Source of the DNA: Chloroflexota bacterium
Lineage (GTDB): Bacteria; Chloroflexota; Limnocylindria; QHBO01
Assembly (NCBI GenBank): GCA_052388515.1
Contig: JBQTHZ010000022.1
Span: 25,102-89,101, forward strand
Length of the DNA stretch: 64,000 nucleotides
Direction of reading: 5' to 3'
The notes under the pieces were generated by a model. It saw nothing but the letters and a program-made list of their open reading frames with translations. It was not told the origin of the DNA and made no database searches. A program made the position numbers and the translations under genes. Positions 11,102-64,000 of this stretch are shown piece by piece. The stretch's first letter is position 1. Each line of letters begins with the position of its first letter.

Positions 11102-14100
11102 ATGCGATGCCCCTCGTGCGATTCGGATAACCCGGACGCCGCTCATTTCTGCGCAACATGCGGGGGTCGACTGCTCCTGACCTGCGCGCACTGCGGGGCG
11201 GAGCTGGCGCATGACGCCCGGTTCTGCTCGTTCTGCGGCGAACCGGTCGGTGGTGAGGGCCAGCGGCCGGCGGAGGCGGCGCCCGAGCCCGAGCGGCGCC
11301 GGGTCTCGGTGCTCTTCGTTGACCTTGCCAATTTCACTGCGCTTGCGGAGGCGATGGACCCGGAAGAGGTTCGGGCGGTGCAGGCACGCTACTTCGAGGT
11401 GGCGCGATCGATCGTTGCCGCCTACGGGGGCACGATCGAGAAGTTCATCGGCGATGCCGTCATGGCTGTCTGGGGTGCGCCATCCGCCCACGAGGACGAT
11501 GCAGAGCGGGCGGTCCGCGCCTCCCTTGCCATGGTCTACGCGGTCGACCGCATGGGCGGAGCCGCGTCCGGCCGAGCACTCCACGCCCGTGCTGCCGTCG
11601 CGACGGGGGAGGCGGCGGTGACGATCGGCGCCCGGGGCCAGGGCATGGTCGCCGGGGACCTCGTGAACGTGGCCGCACGTCTCCAGAGCCGCGCGCCGGT
11701 CGGCGGCGTGCTCGTCGATCGGACGACCCGCGAGCGCGCGTCGACTGCAACATCGTTCCGGCGCGTCGGGGCGCTGGCTCTCAAGGGAAGGACGGGCCGG
11801 CTCGAGGCGTACCGCGCGACGGGCGCCGGCGACGGCTCCGACGGGCGACGGAGCGGCGTTCACCCGGGACGGTTGGTCGGTCGCGATCGAGAGCTGCGGG
11901 AGCTGACCGACCTGGTGAGCACGGTCATGCGCGACCGTCACAGTCGCCTGGTGTCCGTGACGGGCATCGCCGGGATCGGCAAGAGCCGGCTCGCGTGGGA
12001 GCTGGATCGCTGGGTGGACGAGCATCCCGACGGAATCGCGTGGCACGATGGGCGTGCTCTCGCGTACGGCGAGGGGATCGCCTTCTCCGCGGTGGCGCAG
12101 ATGGTCCGTCGTCGTGCCCGCATCGCCGATGGCGTGGCGCCGGAGGTGGCGCGCCGCCAGCTGGGAGCTGCTCTCGAGGAGCTCATCCGCGACGAGGCGG
12201 AGCGACGCTGGATGGAGCCACGTCTCGCGACACTCCTGTCGCGCGAGGACACGACTGCGTTCGACCGCGACGAGCTGTTCGCCGCGTGGCGACGGTTCTT
12301 CGAGGGAGTCTCCGAACGGACCCCGGTCATCCTCGTGTTCGAGGATCTGCAATGGGCGGATCCCAGCCTGGTCGACTTCATCGAGTACATGGCCACGTGG
12401 TCCAGGACCCGACCGATCTTCATCCTTACGCTGGCCAGACCCGAGCTCCTGGACCGCCGCCCGGCGTGGGGTTCCGGGGTCGGCAGCTTCACGGCGATCA
12501 GCCTGGAGCGCTTGCCCGACGATGCCATGCGAGAGCTCCTGGCAGAACGGGCACCTGACCTTCCGGCTGAGCTCCTGCAGCCGATCCTCGAGCACGCCGG
12601 CGGCGTGCCGCTCTACGCCGTCGAGGTCGCCCGGATGCTCGGCGATCGCCGTGACGCAGGGCAGGAGGAGGGGCCACCATCGGTGCGCGCGACGGCGCCA
12701 CCCATGCAGATCGAGGTGCCCGACTCACTCCACGGGCTGATCGCCGCCCGCATCGACTCGCTGCCCGCCGGCGAGCGGCGACTCCTGCTCGCGGCTGCCG
12801 TGCTCGGACACCGCTTCCGGCCGGACGCGCTCCTCACCGTCGCGGGCGGAGGTCCCGACCGAACTCGAGAGCGTCTCGACGGCCTCGTTCGGCGCGAGCT
12901 GCTGACCCTCGACGAAGAGCTCAGCTCACCCGGGCATGGCGAGGTCGGATTCGTACAGGACCTCGTGCGCGAAGTGGCATACCATACGCTCGCGCGCTCG
13001 GAGCGACGCACGCTCCACCTGGCGGCCGCCCACTACCTGGAGTCGCTCGACGAGGACGTCGCGGAGCAGCTCGCCGGGCACCTGGTCGAGGCTCATCGAC
13101 TCACGTCGCAGCCACGCGAGGCCGATCGGCTCGCCCGACGAGCGGTCGCTGCGCTCCGGCACGGCGCGCGGGGCGCCACCGCGCTCCACGTGCCAGAGCG
13201 CGCGCTCGGAATGCTCCAGGCGGCGCTCCGGCTCGGAGGAGCGGGGCAGCGTCCGACGCTCCTGGCCGAGGCTGCCGATGCCGCCCAGGCGGCTGGCCGT
13301 CTCGAGCTCGCCGAAGAGCACCTTCGCGAGCTCATTGCGCTCCAGTCGGGGGCGGGCGAGCAGCACGAGGCCGCTCGATCGCGGGCCAGGCTCGCGAGCG
13401 TCATGCTGTCCGCGCAACGCAACGAGCCGGCGCTGGCGGAGCTGGAAGCGGCGATGCGGGCGATCCGCAACTGGGAGGCCGACCCGGCCGGTGTCGCACT
13501 GGTGGCGGAGCTCGCCCGGGCGCGGACCGTCGTTGGCGACGACCGCGAGGCACTCGCCTGGGCCGACCGCGCGCTGGCGGCGGCGGAACACCTCGGGCTG
13601 GCCGGCATCGCAACCGACCTCCGCGTGACGCGTGGAACCGCGAGGGTCGCCCTGGGCGAGGAGGAGGAAGGGCTGACCGACCTGCGGGCGGCGATCGCGC
13701 AGGCCCAGGACGCGGGGTCGCTCCACACCGAGCTTCGGGCCCGGAACAACGAGGCATGGGCACTGCTGGCCGATGACCCACGTGCGGCGATGGAGACAGC
13801 CCGACTGGGCCTGGAGCTGGCCACGGCGATGGGCCTCGCCGACATCGCCGTGCCCCTGGCTGACATCGCGTGTACCGCGGCAATCGAGACCGGGGAGTGG
13901 GGCTGGGCGTTGGAGACCATCGATGAGCTCACGCAGCGCGGGATTCCCGACACATACGGGATCGTGCTGGCCGCCACCGCCTCCATCATCGGCACGCTCC
14001 GTGGGGCTGCCGACGCCATGGACGCGCTCGACGCGCTCGAACCGCTGCCGCCCGAGACCGACGGGCAGGTCGTCGCCGGCGTGCGGCAGGCGCGCGCGTG

Positions 14101-14665
14101 GGCCGCGTTCGTGGCGGGTGAGCCGGAACAGGCGCGCCGCCTGGCGCAGGAGGCCACCACCGGATACGTCGGGAACGACCCCGCATACCAGCGGGCGCTC
14201 GCGACGCGCGCCGCGTTGTGGGCGGGCGATCAACCATCGGCCGAGGCGAGCATGGCTGGCCTCAGCGCTCCGGGGCAGTGGGGGCGCGCGACCGAGGCAA
14301 CCGTCGAGACGATGGAAGCCGGGCTCGCCGCGATCGGCGCACAGCAGGATGCGCGCGCACGCTACCGCCGAGCCCGTTCGGGATGGGAGGAGCTCGGTCT
14401 GCCACTTCAGCTCGCACTCTGCATGCTTGACGAACACAGGCTCGCACCTGGATCCGCGAGCGGCGGCGAGCTCATCGCCCTGGTGACGTCACTCGGCGCG
14501 GACGGCCTGCTCCCCCTGGTCGGCGACGATGAGGTGGCACTCAGGAGCCGATCAGATCCTCCACGACCGGCGCGATCGCGTCCACCCAGAGGCGGTACTG
14601 CGCGCCGGACGGGTGCAGCCCGTCGTCCGCCACGAGCGTCGGGTCGTCCCGCGCCGCCTGGCTGA
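11102..14665 (+). CDS. Multidomain signalling protein: double zinc ribbon, class III adenylate/guanylate cyclase, AAA/STAND ATPase, TPR-like repeats
   Basis: N-terminus CPSCDS..CATCG..CAHCG..CSFCG. Cyclase core VSVLFVDLANFT...FIGDAVMAVWGAP. P-loop GIAGIGKS. Long Ala/Leu-rich TPR-like C-terminal half. The last ~40 aa are low-complexity R/P-rich and overlap the lipase gene, so the true stop may lie earlier or there is a frameshift. Confidence 0.75.
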   Translation: MRCPSCDSDNPDAAHFCATCGGRLLLTCAHCGAELAHDARFCSFCGEPVGGEGQRPAEAAPEPERRRVSVLFVDLANFTALAEAMDPEEVRAVQARYFEVARSIVAAYGGTIEKFIGDAVMAVWGAPSAHEDDAERAVRASLAMVYAVDRMGGAASGRALHARAAVATGEAAVTIGARGQGMVAGDLVNVAARLQSRAPVGGVLVDRTTRERASTATSFRRVGALALKGRTGRLEAYRATGAGDGSDGRRSGVHPGRLVGRDRELRELTDLVSTVMRDRHSRLVSVTGIAGIGKSRLAWELDRWVDEHPDGIAWHDGRALAYGEGIAFSAVAQMVRRRARIADGVAPEVARRQLGAALEELIRDEAERRWMEPRLATLLSREDTTAFDRDELFAAWRRFFEGVSERTPVILVFEDLQWADPSLVDFIEYMATWSRTRPIFILTLARPELLDRRPAWGSGVGSFTAISLERLPDDAMRELLAERAPDLPAELLQPILEHAGGVPLYAVEVARMLGDRRDAGQEEGPPSVRATAPPMQIEVPDSLHGLIAARIDSLPAGERRLLLAAAVLGHRFRPDALLTVAGGGPDRTRERLDGLVRRELLTLDEELSSPGHGEVGFVQDLVREVAYHTLARSERRTLHLAAAHYLESLDEDVAEQLAGHLVEAHRLTSQPREADRLARRAVAALRHGARGATALHVPERALGMLQAALRLGGAGQRPTLLAEAADAAQAAGRLELAEEHLRELIALQSGAGEQHEAARSRARLASVMLSAQRNEPALAELEAAMRAIRNWEADPAGVALVAELARARTVVGDDREALAWADRALAAAEHLGLAGIATDLRVTRGTARVALGEEEEGLTDLRAAIAQAQDAGSLHTELRARNNEAWALLADDPRAAMETARLGLELATAMGLADIAVPLADIACTAAIETGEWGWALETIDELTQRGIPDTYGIVLAATASIIGTLRGAADAMDALDALEPLPPETDGQVVAGVRQARAWAAFVAGEPEQARRLAQEATTGYVGNDPAYQRALATRAALWAGDQPSAEASMAGLSAPGQWGRATEATVETMEAGLAAIGAQQDARARYRRARSGWEELGLPLQLALCMLDEHRLAPGSASGGELIALVTSLGADGLLPLVGDDEVALRSRSDPPRPARSRPPRGGTARRTGAARRPPRASGRPAPPG

Positions 14666-55444: not shown

Positions 55445-56143
55445 ATGGAGATCGCCCCGGGCGTCCATCACGTGCGTCTGCCGGGGGTGGACACGTTCAT
55501 CGTCGCCGAGCCCGGACGACCCGTGACGCTGATCGACGCCGGCATGTTCTGGTCGCGCTCGCCGATCGAGCGGCACCTGCGGCGGATCGGACGCCGCCGG
55601 GACGAGATCGAGCGGATCGTCTGCACGCATGGGCACCCGGACCACATCGGAGGCATCCGGCGGTTGCTCCAGGGACGGCCGGAGGCATCGGTCCTGATGC
55701 ATTCGGCAGACATCGCCGGCCTGCGGATCAGCCCGCGCCAGGCACTGCGCCGGACCACGGACGGCGTCGCGCGACGCGTCCGGCTGCTCGATCTCCTCAC
55801 GCGAGCTCCAGAACGTCTCGAGCCGATCGAGGACGGCGACGAGATCCCGGTGCTGGGCGGGCTCAGGGTGGTCCATACGCCCGGGCATACTCCGGGAAGC
55901 ATCTGCCTCTATGCCGAGCGTCATCGGCTGCTCTTCACCGGCGATGTGCTTCAGGTGATCAGGGGACGCCTCACCTATGCCAACGCCTTCTTCAGCCACG
56001 ACATGAACCAGGCGCGGGCGACCCTGGCGAGGCTGGCGGAGCTCGATGTCGAAACGATCGCCATGGCGCACTACCGCCCCTGGCGCGACCACGCAGGTCT
56101 CGCGCTCCGCGCCCTGGCGGCCGGCAGCACGATCACGCGGTAG
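55445..56143 (+). CDS. MBL-fold metallo-hydrolase
   Basis: HxHxDH motif CTHGHPDHIGG and HTPGHTPG. Confidence 0.75.
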   Translation: MEIAPGVHHVRLPGVDTFIVAEPGRPVTLIDAGMFWSRSPIERHLRRIGRRRDEIERIVCTHGHPDHIGGIRRLLQGRPEASVLMHSADIAGLRISPRQALRRTTDGVARRVRLLDLLTRAPERLEPIEDGDEIPVLGGLRVVHTPGHTPGSICLYAERHRLLFTGDVLQVIRGRLTYANAFFSHDMNQARATLARLAELDVETIAMAHYRPWRDHAGLALRALAAGSTITR

Positions 56144-56300
56144 CCCTGGCCCGACGTCGTTCGATCAGTACTCAAGTGCTGTTGAGGCGGATGGCAGCGG
56201 CAATCACTGTCTGGACACCGGCCCAATCCAGCGTCAATATCGCGCTGGCCGATCATCTGGGGGCCGATCAAGGTCCGACGTCGGACGGAGGAATCGACCG

Positions 56301-57314
56301 TTGCCCGAGCAATCCCTCGAAGGGATGCCCGGAGTCGCCGAACGAGCGAGCCGGGATGTCCGGACGCGCCCCTCGACGGAGCACGGCCCCGCACCTATCG
56401 AGCATCGCCCCGCGGATCCCCGCCTGGTCGGTTTCGCCGATGAGCCGCGTGACCACCGTCTCTACCGTCGCATGCGGTTCATTCGGCGGTTCGAAGAGCG
56501 CCTGCTCGACCTGTTCGAAGAGGGCGTGCTCAACGGCACGACGCACGCGTGCATCGGCCAGGAGGCGGACTGCGTCGGCGTGATCGAGCATCTGCGGCCG
56601 GGCGACCACATCTTCAGCAATCACCGTTGCCATGGCCACTACCTCGCCTGGACCGGCGACGCGATCGGGCTGCTTGCCGAGATCATGGGCAAGGCGGCAG
56701 GCGTGTGCGGCGGGATCGGTGGCAGCCAGCACCTGTGCACGAGCGGGTTCAAGTCCAACGGCATCCTCGGCGGCACGGCCCCCGCCGCGGCAGGGATCGC
56801 GCTTGGCATGAAGCTCTCGAAGAGCGACGCCGTCAGCGTCGCCTTCATCGGCGACGGGACCTTCGGGGAGGGGGTCCTGTACGAGACGCTGAACATCGCC
56901 TCGCTCTGGGCGTTGCCCCTCCTGATCGTCGTCGAGAACAACGGCTACGCGCAGAGCACGCCGATCGCGGCCAACCTGGCCGGCGACATCCCCGCCCGGA
57001 TCCGGGCGTTCGGCATCCAGGCATCGCACCTTGACTCGACCGACGTCCGCGAGATCGAGGCCGAGGCAGCACGGCTGGTTGGCGCCGTGCGCGAGGCGCG
57101 GACCCCGCGAGCCCTCGTGATCGACACGTACCGGCTCTGCCATCACTCGAAGAGCGACGACAACCGACCCGAGGCGGAAGTCGCCGAACGGTGGCTGCGC
57201 GAGCCGCTCGTCATCCAGGCTGCGCATCTCACCGAGGAGAGTCGCCTGGGCATCGACCGCGCGGTGGAGGACGCCATCGACGAGATGATCGACGCGGCCC
57301 GGGCACTGCCCTGA
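56301..57314 (+). CDS. ThDP-dependent 2-oxoacid dehydrogenase E1 component, alpha subunit
   Basis: ThDP motif GDGTFGEGVLYETLN...LIVVENNGYAQST. Start uncertain: TTG 56301 with a GGAGGA RBS, or ATG 56325. Confidence 0.8.
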   Translation: MPEQSLEGMPGVAERASRDVRTRPSTEHGPAPIEHRPADPRLVGFADEPRDHRLYRRMRFIRRFEERLLDLFEEGVLNGTTHACIGQEADCVGVIEHLRPGDHIFSNHRCHGHYLAWTGDAIGLLAEIMGKAAGVCGGIGGSQHLCTSGFKSNGILGGTAPAAAGIALGMKLSKSDAVSVAFIGDGTFGEGVLYETLNIASLWALPLLIVVENNGYAQSTPIAANLAGDIPARIRAFGIQASHLDSTDVREIEAEAARLVGAVREARTPRALVIDTYRLCHHSKSDDNRPEAEVAERWLREPLVIQAAHLTEESRLGIDRAVEDAIDEMIDAARALP

Positions 57315-58321
57315 TGCTCGTTCATGACCTGAACGCTGCCCTCGGGCAGCTCCTTCGCGAGGACCCGCGGGTGGTCGTCATGGGCGAGGACATCGCCGAC
57401 CCCTACGGCGGCGCCTTCAAGGTGACGCGTGGCCTGACCGACGCGGTGCCGGAGCGTGTCCTCACCACGCCGGTCAGTGAGGGCGCCATCGTCGGCGTGG
57501 CCGCCGGGTTGGCCATGTCGGGCTATCGGCCGATCGTGGAGGTCATGTTCGCCGACTTCCTGACCCTCACCTTCGACCAGGTCGTCAACCACGTGACGAA
57601 GTACCCCGCCATGTACGACGGCAAGGTGACCTGTCCGGTGATCATTCGCAGCCCGTCTGGAGGCCACCGCGGCTACGGGCCGACGCACAGCCAGAGCCCG
57701 GAAAAGCACTTTCTCGGCGTTCCGAACCTCCTGGTCGTGGCCTCGTCCCCGTATCACGATCCGCTCGCGGTGTACCGGGCCCTCCTCCAGCGGGACGATG
57801 CGGTGCTGTTCGTCGAGCACAAGCTCCTCTATCCGGAGCCGCTCTCGGCACCCGTGGGCGGTCGCATCGGGGAGGCGCTCGGCCGCGAGGAGTCCTCAGC
57901 GGGCTGCCTTCCGACGGTCGCGCTCTCGTGGGTCCCGCCCGAGGATTGCACGGTCACCGTCCTGGCCTACGGGTACACGGCGCTGATCGCCGCGCGGGTG
58001 CTCGAGCGTCTTGCGATCGAAGAGGAGATCTTCGGCGAGCTGCTGGTACCGGCCCAGATTGCGCCGATGGACCTGGGGCCGGTCGAGGCCTCCGTGCGTC
58101 GGACGCGCAGCCTGCTCACCATCGAGGAGGGGACGGCGGGCTGGGCGTGGGGAACCGAGATCGCCCAGCAGATCGGCCACCGGCACTTCGGCCAGCTGCG
58201 CCGGCCAGTCGACGTGCTTGCCAGCGCCGCGACCATCATCCCCAGCAGCCGTGAGCGGGAGGAGCTGGTGCTCGTCAGCCCTGCCGACATGCGGTCCCGC
58301 ATCCGCGAGGCGGCGACATGA
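57314..58321 (+). CDS. 2-oxoacid dehydrogenase E1 component, beta subunit (transketolase-like)
   Basis: VVMGEDIADPYGGAFKVTRGL...PVSEGAIVGVAAGLAMSG are E1-beta signatures. Start overlaps the E1-alpha stop. Confidence 0.85.
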   Translation: MLVHDLNAALGQLLREDPRVVVMGEDIADPYGGAFKVTRGLTDAVPERVLTTPVSEGAIVGVAAGLAMSGYRPIVEVMFADFLTLTFDQVVNHVTKYPAMYDGKVTCPVIIRSPSGGHRGYGPTHSQSPEKHFLGVPNLLVVASSPYHDPLAVYRALLQRDDAVLFVEHKLLYPEPLSAPVGGRIGEALGREESSAGCLPTVALSWVPPEDCTVTVLAYGYTALIAARVLERLAIEEEIFGELLVPAQIAPMDLGPVEASVRRTRSLLTIEEGTAGWAWGTEIAQQIGHRHFGQLRRPVDVLASAATIIPSSREREELVLVSPADMRSRIREAAT

Positions 58322-59460
58322 CGCCGGTCCTGATTCCCTGGACCGATGTCAACAGCGAGGCGGCCACGGTGGTTGCGTGGCACGTCCCCGATCGCTCGCG
58401 CGTGAGCTCGGGTTCTGCGCTGGTGGACGTCGAGACGAGCAAGGCCGCGCTGGAGATCGAGGCCGGTGCAGACGGCGTCCTCCTGCAGCTGGTTGCTGCC
58501 GGCCACGACGTGACCGTCGGTGAACCCGTCGCCATCGTCTTCGACGACGAGACAGCGCTGGAGGCATTCGTCCACGCAAGAGCAACGGAAGCCTCCACCT
58601 CTCTCGACGCCGGCGGCGATGGCGCGGGCCCTCGGGCGACGGCCAAGGCGCGGGAGCGTGCCGACGAGCTTGGCGTGGATCTCGCCACCATCCCGGCAAC
58701 CGGGCTGATCACCGTGCGACATGTCGAGGAGGCGGCCGGCTCCGCCCCCGAGCCCGTCCAGGACGCGGCCGAGCCCCTGGCGGGCGACGACAGGACAGAG
58801 CGGCTCCTGCTGATCGGCGCGGGCCTGGGCGCCACCCAGGTGCTCGACATCCTGGCCGGCACGCCCGGCCAATCGGCGATCGGCATCGTCGACGACAACA
58901 CGTCGTTCTGGGGTCGCACCATCCGCGGGCTGCCCGTGGTCGGCGGCAGCGCCGCCATCGCCGCGCTGTGGGAACGATCGGCCATGGATGCCGTCGTGAT
59001 CACGATCAGCACGTCGATCGAGGCCCGGGCGCGACTTCGCGGCATCTGCCAGGCCGCCGGGATCCCGCTCGCCAATGTCGTGGACGCGACCGCGAAGATC
59101 GCCACGGGGGTCCGGATGGGGAGCGGCAACGTAATCTGTGCGTTCGTCCAGGTCGGAACCGAGACCGTGCTCGGTGACAACAACTTCCTGTCGGCGTTCA
59201 ACAGCTTTGACCACCACAACGTCATCGGCTGCGACATCTCCACCGGGCCGGGATGCATGACCTCGGGCGAGGTCGTGATCGAGGATGGCGTACGGCTGGG
59301 CACCGGCGTCTTCGTGGAGCCCAAGCTCACGCTCGGAGCGCGTGCGGTGGTCGCCTCGGGTTCGGTCATCGTCCACTCGGTGCCTGCCGATCACGCGGTG
59401 AAGACCAAGGTCGTCACCACGACCGTGGTTCCCATCCGGCGCGGCGGATCGTCCGCGTGA
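58318..59460 (+). CDS. Lipoyl domain + E3-binding domain fused to a PglD/NeuD-type left-handed beta-helix acyltransferase (atypical E2)
   Basis: Lipoyl-lysine context VDVETSKAALEIEA, a PSBD-like segment, then LLLIGAGLGATQVLDIL (the PglD/NeuD N-terminal Rossmann-like subdomain) and hexapeptide repeats carrying a DHH-type His. No chloramphenicol-acetyltransferase-like E2 core is present. ATG overlaps the E1-beta TGA. Confidence 0.7.
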   Translation: MTPVLIPWTDVNSEAATVVAWHVPDRSRVSSGSALVDVETSKAALEIEAGADGVLLQLVAAGHDVTVGEPVAIVFDDETALEAFVHARATEASTSLDAGGDGAGPRATAKARERADELGVDLATIPATGLITVRHVEEAAGSAPEPVQDAAEPLAGDDRTERLLLIGAGLGATQVLDILAGTPGQSAIGIVDDNTSFWGRTIRGLPVVGGSAAIAALWERSAMDAVVITISTSIEARARLRGICQAAGIPLANVVDATAKIATGVRMGSGNVICAFVQVGTETVLGDNNFLSAFNSFDHHNVIGCDISTGPGCMTSGEVVIEDGVRLGTGVFVEPKLTLGARAVVASGSVIVHSVPADHAVKTKVVTTTVVPIRRGGSSA

Positions 59461-60137
59461 GCGACACCGGCGACGGCGACGACGGCCGCACGAGGTCGGA
59501 GATCGTCGTCACGGCGCTTGTCATCTGGGCACCGTTGCTGGTGGTTCTCGGTGGAGCGCTGCTGCTCACGTCGACCACGGAGGTGACCGTCCGCCAGCTC
59601 ACACAGGACCCGACGACGGTGCTCGGCGGTCCGTTCTATGTCGGTGCGCTGTCGAACCTCGGCAATGTGCTCTGGGCGGCCGCCGCGACGGCCTGCCTGG
59701 TCACCGCCCTGGCGCTGCGCTCGCTCATCGACGCTGGGTGGCGCCGGTTCATGCTCGTCTCGGGGATCTTCACAACGGTCCTGCTGGCGGACGATCTCTT
59801 CCTCATCCACGACGAGATCCTGCCGCGGTACGCCGGCATCAGCGGCGAGCTGTACGGCATCGTGTACGTGGTCGGCATGCTGGCCTACCTCGGCGGCTTC
59901 CGCCGGCGGATCGCAGAGACCAACTGGACGCTTCTCCTGGCTGCGCTCGTGTGCTTCGGTATCTCCACCGTGGTCGATCTCGGGTCGTCGCGACTCAGCG
60001 AGATCGTCGCATCGTCGATCGTGATCCTCGCCGAGGACGGGGCGAAGATCCTGGGAATTGGCACCTGGCTCGCCTACTTCGTGTCGGTGAGCCGACAGGC
60101 GATCGTCAGCGGGCCGCCGCGGTTCCAGACCGCCTGA
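59457..60137 (+). CDS. Hypothetical polytopic membrane protein, translationally coupled to the atypical E2
   Basis: GTG start overlaps the TGA (GTGA). About 6 hydrophobic helices. Confidence 0.5.
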   Translation: MSDTGDGDDGRTRSEIVVTALVIWAPLLVVLGGALLLTSTTEVTVRQLTQDPTTVLGGPFYVGALSNLGNVLWAAAATACLVTALALRSLIDAGWRRFMLVSGIFTTVLLADDLFLIHDEILPRYAGISGELYGIVYVVGMLAYLGGFRRRIAETNWTLLLAALVCFGISTVVDLGSSRLSEIVASSIVILAEDGAKILGIGTWLAYFVSVSRQAIVSGPPRFQTA

Positions 60138-60146
60138 CGGGTTGCT

Positions 60147-61781
60147 TCACGCCTTCGATCGGGAGAGCGCGCCGCGATACAGGTCCAGGAGCCGCGTGCT
60201 CAGGCCGGGCCCGGAGCTGACGAGATCACGGAATGCATCGGCCTCGAGCGCGAGGAGCATGCCCGCCGCGGTGGCGGTCACGGTCGCGGTCCGCGGCGAC
60301 TGGCGAAGGAGCCCGATCTCTCCGAAGACGTCGCCCGGCCCGAGGTCGCGCAGGTGGACCGCCGTGCCGCCGGCGTCCGGCACCTGGGTCACGGCGACGC
60401 TGCCCTCGCCGATGACGTAGAACCGATCGGCGGCATCCCCCTGGCGGATGATCACGGTGCCCTGGTCCACCGGGACCTCCTCCAACTGGCGGGCGGCGGC
60501 CTCCAGGCGTGCGGCCGGCAACCCGGCGAAGATGGGATGCTCGAGCATCCGTGCGCGGGACGGATCCAGGGCTGCGGGCCGGGACTCTCGCGGCGCGAGG
60601 GCAAAGGCGGTCACGACGCCGACCACGGTGATCACTGCGGAGCCGATGAGGACCGGACCCACGCCGAACGCGCCGGCGATCAGCGGCATGACCAATGATC
60701 CAAGCGCGTAGAGAATCGCAGACGTCGTCTGCAGGACACCCATGGCGCGCCCTCGAAGCTCGTCGGGCACGATGCGCTGGATCAGCGTCGTGTTCACCAC
60801 GTCGAGCAGGAGGAGTCCACCGACCGCAATGCCAATGGCCAGCATGGCAGTCACGAGGTCGCCGGCCAGCGCGAGCCAGGCGAGACCGATCCCACCGAAC
60901 ATGCCGCCCAGGACCAGCGGCACCCCGAGACGACGAGCAAGCAGCGCCCCGGCCGCGATCCCGGTCACGACCCCTCCGACCCCGGTCGCTGCGTTGAGAA
61001 ATCCGGTACCGGCCTCGCCCGCGTTGAGCACGTCGACCGCGATGACGACCGTCAGCACTCCCACGCCTCCGCCCACGATGCTCGTCGTCGAGTCAAGGAT
61101 GAGTGGCCCCGCCAGCGGCCGGACGAGCTGGCGCCAACCGGCGGCAGGAGGTGCCGCGGCGTCCTCGCTGGTGGTCACCGGGCTCGCCGCGCGCGGCACG
61201 GGAAGCCGCCACAGGACGACCGCCACCACAGCGAACGAGATCGCGTTCAACAGGAACGCGAACTCGAGCCCACCACTCGCGAGCAGGATCCCGGCGAGAG
61301 CGGGGCCAACGATGAAGGCGACGTTGTCGAGGGTTGCCCACGCACTGTTTGCCGGGCCGAGGTCGCTCTCGTCCACGAGCATCGGCAGGAGCGCCGCGAT
61401 CGCCGGACCGAAGAACGTGGAGAAGCAGGCCGCAACGATGGCGAGGCCGACGATCGCGAACGTCGGCGCGTCCACGAGGACGGCCGCCACCAGGATCAGC
61501 ATCAGGACGCCGCGCGCCACATCCGTGACCAGCAGGACCATGCGGCGGTCGAAGCGGTCGGCCACGATTCCCGCAGGCACCGAGAGCAGGACGTACGGCA
61601 GGATGCGTGCAGCACCCACGATCCCCAGGAGGACCGCGGACTGGCTCTCGGCGTAAACGGCGACCAGGACGGCCACCAGGTAGAGCCAGTCACCGATCCC
61701 GGAGATGAACTCACCGGCCAACAGCCGTGCGAGCGCTCGATTTCGACGGAAGAGCTCGACGTAGACGCGGAGCAGGCTCAC
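60147..61781 (-). CDS. MFS transporter fused to a C-terminal cyclic-nucleotide-binding (cNMP) domain
   Basis: 12 TM MFS core with motif GIVADRFDRR, then a CAP-family cNMP domain (FGEIGLL...RTATV). GTG start at 61781 with a GAGGAG RBS, overlapping the S8 TGA. Confidence 0.75.
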   Translation of the reverse strand: MSLLRVYVELFRRNRALARLLAGEFISGIGDWLYLVAVLVAVYAESQSAVLLGIVGAARILPYVLLSVPAGIVADRFDRRMVLLVTDVARGVLMLILVAAVLVDAPTFAIVGLAIVAACFSTFFGPAIAALLPMLVDESDLGPANSAWATLDNVAFIVGPALAGILLASGGLEFAFLLNAISFAVVAVVLWRLPVPRAASPVTTSEDAAAPPAAGWRQLVRPLAGPLILDSTTSIVGGGVGVLTVVIAVDVLNAGEAGTGFLNAATGVGGVVTGIAAGALLARRLGVPLVLGGMFGGIGLAWLALAGDLVTAMLAIGIAVGGLLLLDVVNTTLIQRIVPDELRGRAMGVLQTTSAILYALGSLVMPLIAGAFGVGPVLIGSAVITVVGVVTAFALAPRESRPAALDPSRARMLEHPIFAGLPAARLEAAARQLEEVPVDQGTVIIRQGDAADRFYVIGEGSVAVTQVPDAGGTAVHLRDLGPGDVFGEIGLLRQSPRTATVTATAAGMLLALEADAFRDLVSSGPGLSTRLLDLYRGALSRSKA

Positions 61782-62623
61782 GCGCGCGCTTCTCCTCGTC
61801 CACGGGGGTGGCGGCGACCGGGATTGTCGGCGACGCTGGTCAGGATCGCCTTGACCTCGAACGGGCTGAGGCCCGGGTGCTTCGACAGGATGAGTGCCAC
61901 GAGTCCGGCCAGGTGCGGCGCCGCGAAGCTGTTGCCGGTGGCAATGGTGCTCCCGCCGTCCTTCCACGCGATCGGAACGTCGACGCCCCATGCCCCGAAC
62001 TCCACCGGCGGCGCGGGATTGTAGTAGATCCGCCAGGGGTCCGGCTCGGCGTGGGCAGCCACCGAGAAGACCGATGAAAAGAGCGAGGGATAGCTGGGCG
62101 CCGGGACGTTGTTCGCAGCGCTCACCAGCGCGGTACCGCGAAAGTACGCGCGATCGGCGAGGTCATGGAAGACCGGGTAGAGCGACTCGCTCTTCGACGA
62201 CAGGCTCAGGTTGCAGACCTGCAGTCCCTGCTCGATCGCCCATTCAAGACCGGCGGCGAAGGCGGTTCCCTTCCCGCGCAGGTCCGGGCCGAGGACACGA
62301 ATCGAGACGAGCTCGACGTCAGGCGCCAGGCCGACGATGATCGCGCCACACGCCGTGCCGTGACCGAACATGTCGACTGCCTGGTCCGGAACGACGACGG
62401 GCTCCTCTCCACCGATCTCGACCGTCACGTTCTCGACGACCCGACCGTGCAGGTCAGGGTGATCGTTCTCGAGCCCCGAGTCGATGATCCCGACGCGAAC
62501 GCCCTTGCCCGTGGCGCCACCCCAGGCCCATTCGCGGGTCAGGCCGACCAGGCGAAGGGGGCGGCGCAGTGCGTGCTTCGGATCCGCGAACGGCTCCGAC
62601 CAGGCCGGGAGCTGGTCGGTCAC
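61778..62623 (-). CDS. Intracellular S8 family subtilisin-like serine peptidase (no signal peptide)
   Basis: Catalytic triad blocks IIDSGL, HGTACG and GNSFAAP. 281 aa. ATG overlaps the GAF-protein TGA. Confidence 0.8.
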   Translation of the reverse strand: MTDQLPAWSEPFADPKHALRRPLRLVGLTREWAWGGATGKGVRVGIIDSGLENDHPDLHGRVVENVTVEIGGEEPVVVPDQAVDMFGHGTACGAIIVGLAPDVELVSIRVLGPDLRGKGTAFAAGLEWAIEQGLQVCNLSLSSKSESLYPVFHDLADRAYFRGTALVSAANNVPAPSYPSLFSSVFSVAAHAEPDPWRIYYNPAPPVEFGAWGVDVPIAWKDGGSTIATGNSFAAPHLAGLVALILSKHPGLSPFEVKAILTSVADNPGRRHPRGRGEARA

Positions 62624-63399
62624 CGCCCGGCTCGGGGACGCCTGGTGCGTCCGGCATGCATCGCCACCACGTCGAGGATGTCGGTCAGGAGCGCCGTCTC
62701 GCGATCGGTGAGCGAACGCAGGCGGGCAACCTGGTCGACGAGGCGCCAGAACGGGGCCTCGTCGTCCACGTCGAGGTCGTTGGTCGCGGCGGCCACGAGG
62801 TCGTCGACCTGTGCCTCGTCGAGGTCAGGGCCGACCTGCGCAAGGACGCTGCGCAGCAGGCGCTCAGTATCGCGCTGAACGCGGGCCGCACCGATGGCAA
62901 CCGTCGCCTGCGCGGCGAACACACCGAGCAGCTCCATGTCATTCAGCGAAAAGGTCGCTGACCCACGCTTGTCGAGCACCTGCAGCACGCCGACCGTGCC
63001 CTGCTCGTCCAGGAGCGGCGCGGCAGCGATCGATCGGGGAACGTAGCCCGTCTGCTCGGCGGCGTCGCGATTGAATCGAGGGTCGTTCGCGACGTCCGAA
63101 AGGGACAGTGCCTGACCGGTCGAGTAGACGAATCCCGCGATGCCCTGCGTCGGCGGGACGGTCAGCCCGACCGCACCCGCCCCCTGCTCGCCGGCAGCGA
63201 CGCGGAACTCGAGCCGATCGGGATCCTGCTCGAACAGCGCGATCGATGCCGCCTCGGCGTCGAAGAGACGAACGGTCGCGTCGACGATGCTCTGCAGCAG
63301 GCGCGTCTCGACATCCCCGGTGAGGCGTCGCCCGATCGCAGAACGCCGCGCCGCCGCAACGAGTGCGGCGAGCGCGGCATCGGCCTGTTGGTTGGCCAC
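62620..63399 (-). CDS. GAF-domain protein
   Basis: GAF fold signature region (ASIALFE...GIAGFVYSTGQAL...DPRF), about 170 aa, then an acidic C-terminal tail. Confidence 0.65.
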   Translation of the reverse strand: MANQQADAALAALVAAARRSAIGRRLTGDVETRLLQSIVDATVRLFDAEAASIALFEQDPDRLEFRVAAGEQGAGAVGLTVPPTQGIAGFVYSTGQALSLSDVANDPRFNRDAAEQTGYVPRSIAAAPLLDEQGTVGVLQVLDKRGSATFSLNDMELLGVFAAQATVAIGAARVQRDTERLLRSVLAQVGPDLDEAQVDDLVAAATNDLDVDDEAPFWRLVDQVARLRSLTDRETALLTDILDVVAMHAGRTRRPRAGR

Positions 63400-63420
63400 C
63401 AGCGCTACATCAACGCGGGC

Positions 63421-63639
63421 TCAGGAGAGCTTAGAGAGATGGCCCTCGGTGTCGTCGTCATCGCCGGCCTTGGGGAGATACGGTCCGTGGCCCTCGGTGT
63501 CCTCGTCGAGCTTCCTGGTGTCGTCGGTCTGGTCCGTCATGATGTGTCCCTCTACTGCGTCGTCGTCAAATGCCTCGCCCCCGAGCGAACCCGGTCGCGA
63601 AAAGCCCTCCATCGGCGGCTGCCGCCGGTAGTTATCCAT
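63421..63639 (-). CDS. Small acidic protein with three D(T/V)EGH repeats
   Basis: GGAGG RBS 9 nt upstream of ATG. The 72-aa product contains AVEGH, DTEGH and DTEGH. Confidence 0.55.
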   Translation of the reverse strand: MDNYRRQPPMEGFSRPGSLGGEAFDDDAVEGHIMTDQTDDTRKLDEDTEGHGPYLPKAGDDDDTEGHLSKLS

Positions 63640-63753
63640 AAGCGGGTACCTCCTGTGGGCGGCGGTGTAACCGCGATGACGTCATCCTATGAATGAGCCG
63701 TACAGTTCGCGAAGCGGGTGTGCGACAGGCCCGGTGTCGGCTATTCGACACTC

Positions 63754-64000
63754 TCACCTGGTGCTCCGTGCTTCGAGGGCACCGAGATCGCTGATCACCA
63801 GGGTGTCGTGTTCGATCTCGAGCAATCCCTCCTCCACCAGCCCGCTGAGGAGCTTGTTGACGCTCTGGCGGGTCCCGCCGATCATCGCAGCCAGATCCGA
63901 CTGTGTGAAGGGCCAGTTCAGCTCGACGCGGCCGGCCGCTCTCGGATCGACATCGCGCGCGAGGCGGACGAGGCGCATCGAGAGACGTCCCGCCAGGTCG
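63754..64000 (-). CDS. Crp/Fnr-family transcriptional regulator (C-terminal HTH part; N-terminus beyond window)
   Basis: HTH_Crp segment TQSDLAAMIGGTRQSVNKLLSGLVEEGLL. The frame is open to the window edge. Confidence 0.65.
   Translation of the reverse strand, partial: DLAGRLSMRLVRLARDVDPRAAGRVELNWPFTQSDLAAMIGGTRQSVNKLLSGLVEEGLLEIEHDTLVISDLGALEARSTR

What the first reader, a model, noticed from the sequence alone, without database searches (positions are those of the whole stretch)
60147..63399. Translationally coupled GAF-protein, intracellular subtilase and MFS::cNMP-binding transporter module
Three minus-strand genes linked by ATGA and GTGA overlaps: a GAF small-molecule sensor, a signal-peptide-less S8 protease (about 280 aa) and an MFS transporter (EntS/MFS_3-like) with a C-terminal cytoplasmic cyclic-nucleotide-binding domain. 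A divergent Crp/Fnr regulator and a DTEGH-repeat mini-protein lie immediately upstream. The combination suggests a second-messenger-gated export or import process tied to regulated proteolysis.
Basis: partly seen in the sequence, partly recalled or inferred. Interest (0 to 1): 0.65.

Follow-up and report, generated by a model that had tools for sequence, protein, structure and literature searches.

The report
cAMP-wired repeat-peptide, protease, exporter operon
A soil bacterium (Candidatus Limnocylindria) carries a conserved, previously undescribed operon in which an unannotated tandem-repeat acidic/histidine mini-protein is always paired with a cyclic-nucleotide sensor and a cytoplasmic subtilisin, and usually with a nucleotide-gated exporter, which looks like a bacterial way of dicing a polyprotein into many small peptides and exporting them on a cAMP signal.

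Summary
The three genes exist as described: GAF 62620-63399, pro-less and signal-less S8 subtilase 61778-62623, and MFS_3 with a C-terminal cNMP-binding domain 60147-61781, all on the minus strand. Two details are wrong. Both overlaps are GTGA, and the Crp/Fnr gene is co-directional, not divergent.

The unit is larger than reported: crp, a Crp-type palindrome and promoter, a 72-aa mini-protein, GAF, S8, MFS.

- **Mini-protein:** it belongs to an unannotated family (1,823 clusters, no Pfam or NCBIfam) built from acidic-run-[TV]-E-G-H motifs separated by species-specific basic spacers, with 2 to more than 10 copies.
- **Conservation:** in 55 well-flanked loci, GAF and a mini-protein accompany the S8 in all 55, MFS::cNMP in 49 and Crp in 48.
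- **Gene order:** at least five different orders occur, across two phyla (Limnocylindria and Gaiellaceae).
- **Overlaps:** the 4-nt overlaps are conserved.

Best reading (confidence about 0.4): cNMP-Crp switches on a polyprotein precursor. A GAF-controlled cytoplasmic subtilase dices it, and the cNMP-gated EntS-like MFS exports the peptides, which may be a metal chelator or a signal. No step has been shown biochemically. The main rival is regulated proteolysis of a cytoplasmic disordered protein.

I found no prior description.

The parts
63754..64000 (-). 3' end of a Crp/Fnr-family regulator gene (HTH domain). The gene runs off the window end and is co-directional with the operon.
   Evidence: PF13545 HTH_Crp_2, 55.7 bits. 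Full-length orthologues are 231 aa with cNMP_binding plus HTH_Crp_2 and a canonical FGELALL..PRS cassette.
63735..63750 (.). Perfect palindrome TGTCGAATAGCCGACA (TGTCG-N6-CGACA). Proposed binding site of the adjacent Crp, centred about -65 from the inferred transcription start.
   Evidence: TGTC-N8-GACA is conserved in all 26 aligned crp-mini intergenic regions. The exact pattern occurs twice in the 64-kb window against 0.19 expected. The box lies upstream of the mini gene in both gene orders (L091).
63711..63727 (-). Second conserved element, TGTCG..GCTTC. It overlaps the -35 region and may be a second, imperfect Crp half-site at about -42.
   Evidence: The 80% consensus of the 26-locus alignment keeps TG-TCG and GCTTC. 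Its function is inferred.
63684..63689 (-). -10-like hexamer TAGGAT of the operon promoter.
   Evidence: Conserved as TAGGAT in the 80% consensus of 26 loci. The E. coli-type consensus scan did not pick it up.
63649..63654 (-). Shine-Dalgarno AGGAGG, 9 nt before the mini-protein ATG.
   Evidence: Read from the sequence. GGAGG is conserved before ATG-GAC-AAC-TAC in 26 loci.
63421..63639 (-). Mini-protein of 72 aa with net charge about -12 and no hydrophobic segment. It has a conserved N-terminal leader (MDNYRRQPPMEGFSRPGSLGGEA) and three acidic-[VT]-E-G-H motifs at 63544-63567, 63487-63507 and 63439-63462. Proposed precursor or substrate.
   Evidence: GC by codon position is 0.68/0.42/0.79, like the neighbouring genes. 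It is a member of an unannotated family of 1,823 clusters. A mini-protein is present in 55 of 55 well-flanked loci.
62620..63399 (-). GAF protein of 259 aa: an N-terminal helix, a GAF domain (residues about 30-175), and a C-terminal helical region with conserved PxWxLVDxVARLR. Proposed cNMP sensor coupled to the protease.
   Evidence: PF01590, 70.6 bits. The best PDB relatives are cNMP-binding GAFs: 4mcw, 1ykd, 5w10, PDE2A/10A/5/6. AF2 model pLDDT is 77, with the C-terminal part at low confidence. The family alignment is A3.
61778..62623 (-). Cytoplasmic, pro-less subtilase (S8) of 281 aa. It has a GTG start inside a GTGA overlap with the GAF stop, and a conserved N-terminal LPAWSEPF extension.
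   Evidence: PF00082, 93.1 bits. It aligns to mature subtilisin. AF2 pLDDT is 81, and Foldseek's best matches are subtilisin BPN' variants with the calcium loop deleted. It is closest to, but below the cut-offs of, QhpE and mycosin. No signal peptide.
60147..61781 (-). MFS_3 (EntS/DHA3-like) transporter of 544 aa. It has a GTG start inside a GTGA overlap with the S8 stop. The C-terminal cNMP-binding domain covers residues about 417-537 (60171-60533) and is expected to be cytoplasmic.
   Evidence: MFS_3 93.9 bits; cNMP_binding 73.1 bits; nearest cNMP domain is mycobacterial Pat at 72 bits. Hydropathy peaks span residues 25-395. PBC motif FGEIGLLRQSPRTA.
60082..60097 (.). Second exact TGTCG-N6-CGACA palindrome, 50 nt downstream of the MFS stop. 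Whether it belongs to the system is uncertain.
   Evidence: No box is seen at the equivalent position in related loci.

Best explanation
The unit is a five-gene, cyclic-nucleotide-wired cassette: crp, then a Crp-dependent promoter, then mini-protein, GAF, S8 and MFS::cNMP.

Proposed mechanism:
1. A class III cyclase raises cAMP (or a related cNMP). The liganded Crp binds the TGTCG-N6-CGACA box and switches on the operon.
2. The first product is an intrinsically disordered polyprotein. It has a recognition leader (or, in another clade, a C-terminal follower) plus 2 to more than 10 copies of an acidic-run-[TV]-E-[GA]-H motif separated by short basic spacers.
3. The signal-less, pro-less subtilase is made in fixed ratio with the GAF protein through translational coupling. 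It is probably controlled by cNMP binding to that GAF. It dices the polyprotein at each repeat into peptides of about 13-16 residues.
4. The EntS-like MFS exports the peptides, and its cytoplasmic cNMP-binding domain gates transport.
5. The exported Asp/Glu/His peptides act outside the cell. They are most likely a metal-binding peptide: cleavage before E-G-H or after E would expose an N-terminal X-X-His or Gly-His copper/nickel site. Alternatively they are a species-specific signal.

Shown: the gene content, its conservation and coupling, the conserved operator-like box, and the domain families.

Inferred: the ligand, that the mini-protein is the protease substrate, the cleavage sites, the export direction, and the role of the peptides.
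For: - **Constant membership despite shuffling.** Among 55 loci with at least 3 kb on both sides of the S8 gene, GAF is present in 55, a mini-protein in 53 by regex plus 2 variant forms found by eye, MFS::cNMP in 49 and Crp in 48.
- **At least five gene orders keep the same members**:
  - Crp-mini-GAF-S8-MFS
  - MFS-Crp-mini-GAF-S8
  - mini-Crp-GAF-S8 with a convergent MFS
  - cyclase-MFS-GAF-S8-Crp-mini
  - Gaiellaceae S8-GAF with MFS and mini in either orientation
- **Two phyla.** Limnocylindria and Gaiellaceae.
- **Translational coupling is conserved**.
- **The mini-protein is under protein-level selection.** Its motif codons vary synonymously, and its GC3 resembles that of neighbouring genes.
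- **Its copy number varies in whole units.** One example has a 45-bp period, 6.4 copies, at 97% identity.
- **It has a conserved leader or follower**.
- **C-terminal tails resemble a spacer cut after its basic residue.** This holds for 42 of 45 unique tails.
- **The mini-protein has no signal peptide and no hydrophobic segment**, and I take a 70-180-aa protein to be too large a substrate for an MFS exporter (general knowledge of the family), so proteolysis before export is the simplest logic.
- **The S8's closest named family is QhpE** (112 bits over nearly the full model). QhpE is a cytoplasmic subtilisin that trims a small peptide before export by a dedicated efflux transporter (PMC7876137).
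- **The Crp-type box tracks the mini gene** in both Limnocylindria gene orders.
- **All three sensor domains are of the cNMP-binding type**, and a cyclase is adjacent in at least 11 loci.
- **Some Gaiellaceae minis are strongly His/Glu-rich** (EVEGHAFLEGHPDAHAEAHPEAH x2), which fits metal binding.
Against: - No biochemical step has been tested.
- One Chloroflexota lineage keeps a mini-protein with no S8, GAF or MFS within 7-8 kb (L084 and L090).
- About 10% of loci lack an adjacent MFS. Three of them carry a stand-alone cNMP-binding protein instead, so export is not demonstrably obligatory.
- The conserved part of the repeat is the acidic-His motif, while the spacer is variable. That is equally what one expects of a multivalent binding protein.
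- Subtilisin pockets give no clear specificity call. Basic residues at the subtilisin BPN' 101/103 equivalents occur in Limnocylindria but not in Gaiellaceae.
- The window's own mini-protein has only three diverged motifs and one full spacer, so it would yield very few units.
- The transport direction is inferred from family only.
Confidence: 0.4

Rival explanations
1. Cytoplasmic regulated proteolysis. The mini-protein is not cargo. It is a disordered, multivalent acidic/His protein, such as a metal buffer or a decoy or inhibitor of a partner such as Crp, GAF or the protease itself. Its level is set by the GAF-controlled subtilase in response to cNMP. The MFS exports something else, or merely removes the fragments.
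For: - Mini, GAF and S8 form the invariant core (55 of 55), whereas the MFS is missing in about 10% of loci and is replaced by a stand-alone cNMP-binding protein in L032, L037 and L038.
- The mini-protein persists without the module nearby in L084 and L090.
- The conserved element is the acidic-His motif, not the spacer.
- GAF domains can bind small disordered partners: PDE6 GAF with its P-gamma subunit is among the structural matches.
Against: - The MFS::cNMP is translationally coupled to the S8 in 37 of 41 loci. It travels with the set through rearrangements and into a second phylum.
- Copy-number expansion of near-identical units and C-terminal tails that look like processed ends are more typical of product-yielding precursors.
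Confidence: 0.25
2. The mini-protein is a trans-acting pseudo-substrate, inhibitor or folding helper for a subtilase that lacks its own propeptide. The real substrates of the protease are other cellular or imported proteins and peptides, and the MFS moves their products, possibly inward.
For: - The S8 has no I9-type propeptide, yet subtilases normally need one (general knowledge).
- The mini-protein is made from the same transcript, just upstream.
- Multivalent acidic motifs could occupy the basic 101/103 edge of the binding cleft in Limnocylindria enzymes.
Against: - Intracellular subtilisins fold without a classical propeptide (general knowledge).
- Mini-proteins are disordered, extremely variable in length (54 to more than 170 aa) and in copy number, which is unlike a chaperone.
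- MFS_3/DHA3 relatives are exporters (for the family assignment, plus general knowledge).
Confidence: 0.1
3. The genes are functionally unrelated neighbours held together by phylogenetic inertia: a housekeeping intracellular protease, a generic efflux pump and a small ORF of no consequence.
For: Most loci come from one class, Limnocylindria, where conserved synteny could be inherited. All functions are inferred from domains only.
Against: - The same members recur in at least five different orders and orientations and in Gaiellaceae.
- The 4-nt overlaps are conserved.
- The flanking genes differ between loci.
- The small ORF shows protein-level constraint and belongs to a family of 1,823 clusters.
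Confidence: 0.05
4. A cyclic-nucleotide-based anti-phage system (Pycsar/CBASS-like), in which a cNMP activates a membrane effector and a protease.
For: PADLOC gives weak domain-level hits of the cNMP-binding domains to Pycsar effector models (33 bits) and a generic 'subtilase' model. A cyclase is sometimes adjacent.
Against: - The hits cover only the shared cNMP-binding or S8 domains, with no system-specific model.
- The cassette is a conserved chromosomal locus across whole lineages with housekeeping neighbours (RsgA, SufBD, M24). It does not look like a variable island.
- The adjacent cyclases are large Guanylate_cyc+AAA_16 signalling proteins.
Confidence: 0.03

Closest known systems
QhpE / QhpC / QhpF (quinohemoprotein amine dehydrogenase maturation)
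   Same: Both have a compact subtilisin-like protease with no signal peptide or classical propeptide, acting in the cytoplasm. It is encoded in the same operon as its small peptide substrate and trims it before export through a dedicated efflux transporter (PMC7876137). QhpE is the best-covering named model for this S8: 112 bits over positions 1-215 of 219.
   Different: The score is below the curated cut-off of 165. There is no radical-SAM QhpD, flavoprotein QhpG or dehydrogenase subunits. The transporter is an MFS, not an ABC type. The substrate here is a Cys-free tandem-repeat protein. QhpE cuts once, whereas many cuts are proposed here.
Multi-core peptide precursors cut by S8 proteases: cyanobactin PatE with PatA/PatG, yeast alpha-factor and fungal dikaritins with Kex2, animal prohormones with prohormone convertases (own knowledge)
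   Same: A leader plus tandem copies of a unit flanked by conserved recognition sequences. Copy number varies between species. An S8-family protease releases the units. Basic residues lie next to acidic spacer stretches.
   Different: No modifying enzyme (heterocyclase, macrocyclase domain, prenyltransferase and so on) is present in the operon. Processing would occur in the bacterial cytoplasm rather than a secretory compartment. Here the conserved element is the acidic-His motif and the variable element is the basic spacer. The S8 has no PatA/G DUF or P-domain. This is a resemblance of logic, not homology.
EntS / MFS_3 (DHA3) exporters and peptide-exporting MFS pumps (for example the ryptide exporter NF041056)
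   Same: Pfam MFS_3 is well above its cut-off (93.9 against 27). The nearest equivalog models are the H+ antiporter 2A0121, EntS and the ryptide exporter. These are exporters of acidic chelators or small ribosomal peptides.
   Different: All equivalog cut-offs are missed (EntS 88 against 324; ryptide exporter 53 against 575). None of these models includes a C-terminal cNMP-binding domain. I found no paper describing such a fusion.
cNMP-binding proteins next to bacteriocin-type exporters (TIGR03896 cyc_nuc_ocin)
   Same: This is a precedent for a cyclic-nucleotide-binding domain being associated with export of ribosomal peptides. A weak hit to the model was seen (34.5 bits).
   Different: The score is far below the cut-off of 161. 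In that family the domain is a separate protein beside ABC/C39 exporters in cyanobacteria. Here it is fused to an MFS, or stands alone in L032, L037 and L038.
Ribosomal peptide metallophores (methanobactins, bufferins; PMC11626156) and N-terminal X-X-His (ATCUN) peptides such as albumin DAHK and hepcidin DTH (own knowledge)
   Same: Gene-encoded small peptides rich in metal ligands. The [DE]-[GA]-H triads would form an ATCUN or Gly-His site if exposed by cleavage. Some family members are frankly His/Glu-rich.
   Different: Known bacterial examples need MNIO or other modifying enzymes and Cys-derived ligands, and they use Sec or TonB-linked machinery. Here there is no Cys and no modifying enzyme, and metal binding is untested.
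Bacillus intracellular subtilisin proteases (ISPs) (own knowledge)
   Same: Cytoplasmic S8 enzymes with only a short N-terminal extension instead of a prodomain. The high-affinity calcium loop is absent here: the best Foldseek matches are loop-deleted BPN' variants.
   Different: The conserved N-terminal motif here is LPAWS(E/L)PF, not LIPY/F. ISPs are not coupled to a GAF protein, a repeat substrate or a transporter.

Membership tests
Peptidase S8 (subtilase) | Pfam PF00082 above the gathering score; catalytic Asp, His and Ser in that order; oxyanion Asn. | tested here: met
   93.1 bits against 21.8. IIDSG, GHGT, AANN and GNSFAAPH align to subtilisin D32, H64, N155 and S221. These positions are invariant across two phyla.
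QhpE (NF049966) | Score at or above the curated cut-off of 165, and a qhp operon context (QhpC, radical-SAM QhpD, QhpF ABC exporter). | tested here: not met
   112 bits, below 165. No qhp genes in the window or in related loci.
Type VII secretion mycosin (TIGR03921) | Score at or above 278.75; signal peptide and C-terminal membrane anchor; ESX locus. | tested here: not met
   113.6 bits. No hydrophobic N- or C-terminus. No ESX genes nearby.
Intracellular subtilisin proteases (Bacillus ISP type) | No signal peptide; a short N-terminal extension carrying LIPY/F that blocks the active site. | tested here: inconclusive
   No signal peptide. A short extension of about 35 aa with an invariant PAWS motif instead of LIPY/F. 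The AF2 N-terminus has low confidence.
GAF domain, cyclic-nucleotide-binding subgroup | GAF fold, plus ligand-contacting residues of the cAMP/cGMP-binding GAFs, plus demonstrated binding. | tested here: inconclusive
   The GAF fold is met (70.6 bits; model pLDDT above 90 over residues 30-170). The nearest sequence and structure relatives are cAMP/cGMP-binding GAFs. Ligand residues were not mapped, and binding cannot be tested here.
MFS_3 / EntS | Pfam MFS_3 above its cut-off; EntS equivalog at or above 324 bits; about 12 transmembrane helices. | tested here: inconclusive
   MFS_3 is met at 93.9 against 27, with hydrophobic peaks spanning residues 25-395. The EntS equivalog is not met at 88 against 324. 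It is a family member, not an EntS orthologue.
cNMP_binding (CAP-type) domain | PF00027 above its cut-off; phosphate-binding cassette with conserved Gly-Glu and Arg-[ST]-Ala. | tested here: met
   73.1 bits against 27.5. FGEIGLLRQSPRTA. The nearest named domain is the cAMP-binding domain of mycobacterial Pat, at 72 bits.
Crp/Fnr transcription factor | N-terminal cNMP-binding domain plus C-terminal HTH_Crp_2; a palindromic TGTGA-N6-TCACA-like operator. | tested here: inconclusive
   The HTH is met in the window (55.7 bits against 27). The N-terminal domain is seen only in orthologues because the gene is cut by the window end. A conserved TGTCG-N6-CGACA box is present, but binding is untested.
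RiPP / cyanobactin-type multi-core system | A precursor with a leader and repeated cores flanked by conserved recognition sequences; at least one post-translational modifying enzyme; PatA/PatG-type protease domains. | tested here: not met
   The leader-plus-repeat architecture is present. However, no modifying enzyme occurs in any of the gene orders examined, and the S8 carries no extra domain.
Pycsar / CBASS-type defence | A system-specific cyclase and effector models; a variable defence-island context. | tested here: not met
   Only shared-domain hits of 24-34 bits. It is a conserved chromosomal locus with housekeeping neighbours.
Any described family for the mini-protein | A match to a Pfam or NCBIfam model, or a source name. 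| tested here: not met
   No Pfam or NCBIfam hit at E<=0.01 for the window protein, and no credible hit at E<=1 for six diverse members. All of the listed best 120 of 1,823 homologue clusters are 'hypothetical' or unnamed with no Pfam domain. A literature search on the motif found nothing relevant.

The most novel reading that the evidence does not exclude
Bacteria of two soil phyla run a prohormone-like pathway. A cAMP-Crp-induced, intrinsically disordered polyprotein is diced in the cytoplasm by a GAF-regulated, pro-less subtilase into many copies of an unmodified acidic peptide carrying an N-terminal X-X-His (or Gly-His) copper/nickel site. The peptides leave the cell through an MFS pump that opens only when its own cNMP-binding domain is occupied. 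That would make it a gene-encoded, modification-free metallophore (or pheromone) whose synthesis, processing and export are all gated by one second messenger.
Probability: 0.3. Interest if true: 0.85.

Novelty: new variant of a known kind. Interest (0 to 1): 0.72.

Why it matters
If the model holds, four things follow.
- It would be the first bacterial example of polyprotein-style peptide production by a cytoplasmic subtilase without any modifying enzyme.
- It would be the first transporter of the major facilitator superfamily shown to be gated by a fused cyclic-nucleotide-binding domain.
- It would give a function to a large unannotated protein family (at least 1,800 clusters) in Limnocylindria and Gaiellales. 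These are abundant but uncultured soil lineages whose physiology and signalling are almost unknown.
- It would give cAMP signalling in these phyla a concrete output: one messenger controlling transcription, processing and export.

Even under the main rival, cNMP-controlled degradation of a disordered acidic/His protein by a GAF-subtilase pair would be a new regulatory module.

The system is small (five genes, about 4 kb) and could be tested directly by heterologous expression.

Tried and rejected
- **Single-repeat profile.** I replaced it with a three-unit profile (A2).
- **Literature.** Searches for the motif strings, for GAF + subtilisin + MFS-cNMP combinations, and for bacterial tandem-core precursors with subtilisin returned nothing relevant. 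One search failed on a term-length rule.
- **Pfam, NCBIfam and PADLOC.** Scans of mini-proteins and of the trio gave no system-level assignment.
- **Rfam.** A scan of 59900-64000 at E<=1 found nothing, so there is no known riboswitch or leader RNA.
- **Promoter and repeat tools.**
  - The consensus promoter/terminator scan did not find the conserved TAGGAT promoter and found no terminator after the MFS.
  - The inverted-repeat tool missed the 5+5 palindrome, which I found by pattern search instead.
  - Tandem Repeats Finder sees no DNA-level repeat in the window's own mini gene because its three motifs have diverged, unlike L001.
- **Apparent S8-GAF fusion.** The fusion protein P0431 looked like Rosetta-stone evidence. 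I rejected it as a frameshift artefact of a long-read assembly, because the MFS next to it is fragmented.
- **Covariation test.** I tested whether basic residues at the subtilisin 101/103 equivalents track the acidity of the mini motif. They are present in Limnocylindria and absent in Gaiellaceae, while the motifs are about equally acidic, so the test is not informative.
- **GAF C-terminal region.** It has no structural match and low model confidence.
- **Circularity caveat.** The 'invariance' of E-G-H in my motif table is partly circular, because I anchored on EGH. Variants DDV[TS]GH (L052) and [DE]VEAH (Gaiellaceae, L081) exist.

Full report
**Observation**

- **GAF protein:** 62620-63399, 259 aa, PF01590 70.6 bits.
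- **S8 subtilase:** 61778-62623, 281 aa, PF00082 93.1 bits.
- **MFS transporter:** stop at 60147, with MFS_1 128 bits, MFS_3 93.9 bits and a C-terminal cNMP_binding domain at 73.1 bits.

Three details need correction.
1. Both junctions are GTGA (cggGTGAcc and gcGTGAgc). Neither is ATGA.
2. The MFS therefore starts at GTG 61781 (544 aa), not at the upstream ATG of the longest ORF.
3. The Crp/Fnr gene (HTH_Crp_2 55.7 bits) lies on the same strand directly upstream and runs off the window end. It is co-directional, not divergent.

- **The overlaps are not start-call artefacts.** GAF/S8 overlap by 4 nt in 54 of 65 related loci, and S8/MFS in 37 of 41. Independent gene calls agree. The S8 N-terminus is conserved from its first residues.
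- **The S8 has no cryptic signal peptide.** The most hydrophobic 9-residue window in its first 70 residues scores 1.12. The RR at residues 20-21 is followed by charged residues, not an h-region.

**Anatomy in the window**

Reading 5' to 3' on the minus strand:
- the crp 3' end (63754-64000);
- a perfect palindrome TGTCGAATAGCCGACA (63735-63750);
- a second conserved TGTCG..GCTTC element (63711-63727);
- a -10-like TAGGAT (63684-63689);
- AGGAGG (63649-63654);
- a 72-aa ORF (63421-63639);
- after 21 nt, GAF, then S8 (4-nt overlap), then MFS::cNMP (4-nt overlap).

The 72-aa product is MDNYRRQPPMEGFSRPGSLGGEAFDDDAVEGHIMTDQTDDTRKLDEDTEGHGPYLPKAGDDDDTEGHLSKLS. Its net charge is about -12 and it has no hydrophobic stretch. 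GC by codon position is 0.68/0.42/0.79, like its neighbours. Rfam finds no RNA family in the region.

**Organism and conservation**

S8 homologues are named Candidatus Limnocylindria / Chloroflexota. A scan of one genome per species returned 80 loci with S8 identity from 94% down to 53%.

In 55 loci with at least 3 kb on both sides of the S8:
- GAF is adjacent in 55;
- a mini-protein is found in 53 by regular expression, and the other two carry variant forms (DDV[TS]GH in L052; one DVEAH plus a degenerate copy in L081);
- MFS::cNMP is present in 49;
- Crp is present in 48;
- all four partners are present in 42.

Membership survives rearrangement. The orders seen are:
- Crp-mini-GAF-S8-MFS (this window, L001, L002);
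- MFS-Crp-mini-GAF-S8 (L041, L043, L052);
- mini-Crp-GAF-S8 with a convergent MFS (the clade with about 60% S8 identity; L085);
- cyclase-MFS-GAF-S8-Crp-mini (L091);
- in Gaiellaceae (Actinomycetota), S8-GAF (again with a 4-nt overlap) with MFS::cNMP and a 54-65-aa mini-protein in either orientation and no adjacent Crp.

Flanking genes differ between loci. This is strong evidence for a functional unit whose invariant core is mini + GAF + S8.

A large Guanylate_cyc+AAA_16 cyclase is adjacent in at least 11 loci. Its homologue in this window lies 46 kb away, at 11102-14512.

**The mini-protein family**

Every locus encodes a short, disordered protein built from an acidic run followed by [TV]-E-G-H and a spacer of about 5-25 residues. 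The spacer is species-specific and usually ends in Arg/Lys followed by Ala/Thr/Ser. Examples are GFRKGAT, AGRLQAT, TTRRGVT, RSPLKAT, IRRGT and KHTPSAS.
- **Copy number** runs from 2 to more than 10. In L001 the array is a 45-bp unit repeated 6.4 times at 97% identity. The window's own copy is minimal and diverged.
- **Two architectures** exist. One has an N-terminal leader, MD(N/R)(Y/F)RRRPPMEGFSRPGSLGGEA, followed by repeats. The other has repeats followed by a conserved C-terminal follower (..EGH(S/M)(M/I)..NP..AR(D/E)LA.A(R/K)E.DIQR..KK).
- **Protein-level selection.** Motif codons vary synonymously: GAG/GAA, GGC/GGT/GGG/GGA, CAC/CAT.
- **Caveat on invariance.** I anchored on EGH, so its invariance in my tables is partly circular. 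L052 uses V[TS]GH and Gaiellaceae often use VEAH. What is universal is an acidic run, a beta-branched residue, a small residue and His.
- **His/Glu-rich variant.** One Gaiellaceae member is frankly His/Glu-rich: EVEGHAFLEGHPDAHAEAHPEAH, twice.
- **C-terminal tails.** In the leader-type proteins, the tail after the last motif is 4-7 residues. In 42 of 45 distinct cases it ends within two residues of an Arg/Lys, as if it were a spacer already cut after its basic residue.
- **Family size and annotation.** A three-unit profile finds 1,823 protein clusters at E<=0.01. All of the 120 best listed are 'hypothetical' or unnamed, and none has a Pfam domain. Pfam and NCBIfam scans of diverse members are empty. 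A full-text search for the motif finds nothing relevant.

**Regulatory wiring**

An alignment of 26 crp-mini intergenic regions shows four conserved features:
- TGTC-N8-GACA immediately after the crp stop;
- the downstream TGTCG..GCTTC element;
- TAGGAT;
- GGAGG 6-10 nt before ATG-GAC-AAC-TAC.

Taking a start about 7 nt after TAGGAT, the two elements centre near -65 and -42. This resembles class I plus class II CRP promoters (inference).

The exact TGTCG-N6-CGACA occurs only twice in 64 kb against 0.19 expected. The other copy lies 50 nt beyond the MFS stop.

Across loci the box sits upstream of the mini gene whichever side of crp that gene is on. It often also sits upstream of crp. It is absent from the Gaiellaceae loci, which lack an adjacent crp.

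All three sensor domains are of the cyclic-nucleotide type.
- **Crp orthologue:** carries FGELALLDGSPRS.
- **MFS C-terminal domain:** carries FGEIGLLRQSPRTA and is closest to the cAMP domain of mycobacterial Pat.
- **GAF:** its best sequence and Foldseek matches are CyaB2, Lcd1-cAMP, PDE2A/10A/5/6 and a GAF-HD-GYP protein (model pLDDT 77).

The GAF protein also has a C-terminal helical region with a conserved PxWxLVDxVARLR. This region has no structural match and is shortened in Gaiellaceae, where the protein is 206-216 aa.

**The protease**
- It aligns with mature subtilisin from residue 36 and has intact catalytic motifs.
- It lacks the I9 propeptide.
- It lacks the high-affinity calcium loop. 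The best Foldseek matches are loop-deleted BPN' variants (model pLDDT 81).
- It has a short N-terminal extension with an invariant PAWS motif across both phyla.
- The best named models are mycosin (113.6 bits, cut-off 278.75) and QhpE (112 bits, cut-off 165, nearly full-length). It is a member of neither.

QhpE is nevertheless the nearest functional analogue. It is a cytoplasmic subtilisin, encoded with its small peptide substrate, and it trims that peptide before export through a dedicated efflux transporter (PMC7876137).

In Limnocylindria the residues equivalent to BPN' 101 and 103 are Arg and Lys, on the strand that pairs with substrate P3-P5. They are not conserved in Gaiellaceae. I therefore give this little weight.

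**Most likely mechanism (confidence about 0.4)**
1. cNMP-Crp turns on the operon.
2. The mini-protein is a polyprotein precursor recognised through its leader or follower.
3. The subtilase, made in fixed ratio with and probably controlled by the cNMP-binding GAF protein, cuts at every repeat.
4. The EntS-like MFS, gated by its cytoplasmic cNMP domain, exports the resulting peptides of about 13-16 residues.

The argument rests on five points.
- A 70-180-residue protein with no signal peptide seems to me too large a substrate for an MFS exporter.
- A protease is always present.
- The repeats expand in whole units.
- The natural C-terminus looks like a processed end.
- The only gene the Crp box reliably precedes is the mini gene.

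What the peptides do is open. The Asp/Glu/His chemistry, the EntS-like pump and the His-rich variants point to metal binding. Cleavage before E-G-H would create an N-terminal X-X-His (ATCUN) site like albumin DAHK or hepcidin DTH, and cleavage after Glu would create a Gly-His site (own knowledge). The species-specific spacers would equally suit a signal.

Shown: the genes, their coupling, their conservation, the operator-like box and the domain types. Inferred: everything else.

**Rivals**
- **Regulated proteolysis of a cytoplasmic disordered protein, with the MFS as an accessory (about 0.25).**
  - One Chloroflexota lineage keeps the mini-protein, together with a conserved unknown upstream gene, but has no S8, GAF or MFS within 7-8 kb (L084 and L090).
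  - About 10% of loci lack the MFS.
  - L032, L037 and L038 have a stand-alone cNMP-binding protein in its place.
- **The mini-protein as pseudo-substrate or helper of a pro-less protease (about 0.1).**
- **Chance adjacency (about 0.05).** The shuffled but constant membership and the cross-phylum conservation argue against it.
- **A Pycsar-like defence system (about 0.03).** PADLOC gives only shared-domain hits, and the locus is a conserved chromosomal one.

**Comparison with the known, and novelty**

The system works like a leader-protease-exporter peptide pathway. Comparable systems are QhpE/QhpF, cyanobactin PatA/G with multi-core PatE, and Kex2 or prohormone convertases acting on tandem precursors. 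It also uses cyclic-nucleotide control of peptide export, as was suggested for TIGR03896 proteins.

It is a member of none of these.
- Curated cut-offs are missed.
- No modifying enzyme is present.
- The precursor family is unannotated.
- I found no description of an MFS-cNMP fusion, or of the GAF-subtilase pairing, in the libraries and literature available to me.

I rate it a new variant of a known kind. The stronger reading, a modification-free and second-messenger-gated polyprotein metallophore or pheromone pathway, gets about 0.3 probability.

**Dead ends**
- The P0431 S8-GAF 'fusion' is a long-read frameshift artefact.
- The consensus promoter scan and the inverted-repeat tool missed the conserved elements.
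- Subsite covariation was uninformative.
- Multimer structure prediction, which would be the most useful computation, was not available.

Noticed in passing
window 56046-59460 (+): A 2-oxoacid dehydrogenase E1-alpha and E1-beta pair is followed by a 380-aa protein. Its lipoyl and E3-binding N-terminus is fused to a PglD_N/hexapeptide acetyltransferase domain instead of the usual E2 catalytic domain. This is an unusual E2 replacement.
   Followed up: no
window 11102-14512 (+): Homologue (42% identity over 1,138 aa) of the large Guanylate_cyc+AAA_16 cyclase that sits directly beside the module in at least 11 related loci (for example L002, L004, L059, L060, L089, L091). It is a candidate source of the cyclic nucleotide, here 46 kb away.
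   Followed up: partly
window 60082-60097: Second exact TGTCG-N6-CGACA palindrome, 50 nt beyond the MFS stop and inside the 3' end of the convergent ORF 59253-60137. Two exact copies in 64 kb compare with 0.19 expected, but no box is seen at the equivalent position in related loci.
   Followed up: partly
L085 6256-6795; L084 6433-6813; 22 clade-B loci: A conserved protein with no Pfam hit (tested on the L084 copy), carrying ..AQLRRFIKSRxYVPMHExRRRF..VGVYPMRPV, lies immediately upstream of the mini gene and, in L084, L085 and L090, directly downstream of an M24 peptidase gene. This holds in L084 and L090, where S8, GAF and MFS are absent nearby. In L084 a TGTC-N8-GACA box precedes it.
   Followed up: partly
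L032 6840-7139 (-), L037 1665-2084 (-), L038 6878-7144 (-): In a sublineage without the MFS, a stand-alone cNMP-binding protein (139 aa in L037) is encoded convergently right after the S8 (4-nt overlap in L037). The cNMP domain therefore stays with the protease even when the transporter is gone.
   Followed up: partly
L037 2251-3003 (-): A 250-aa predicted membrane protein carries SDVEGH and DDTEGH in a non-repeat, apparently folded context next to the module. The motif may be recognised in other proteins too.
   Followed up: no
L005, L022, L025, L032, L056, L062-L064, L068, L086, L091: In long-read (MFD/ERZ) assemblies the repeat arrays of the mini gene, and sometimes the MFS, are broken by frameshifts. 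The apparent S8-GAF fusion protein P0431 is one such artefact. Gene callers will mis-annotate this family.
   Followed up: yes
L086-L089 (Gaiellaceae loci): An ECF sigma factor gene and a small 'Frankia_peptide' (PF14407, weak) gene, usually with an FTCD_C gene, recur a few kb from the S8-GAF-MFS-mini set. L089 also has SCO4226-like and OsmC genes nearby. Relevance unknown.
   Followed up: no
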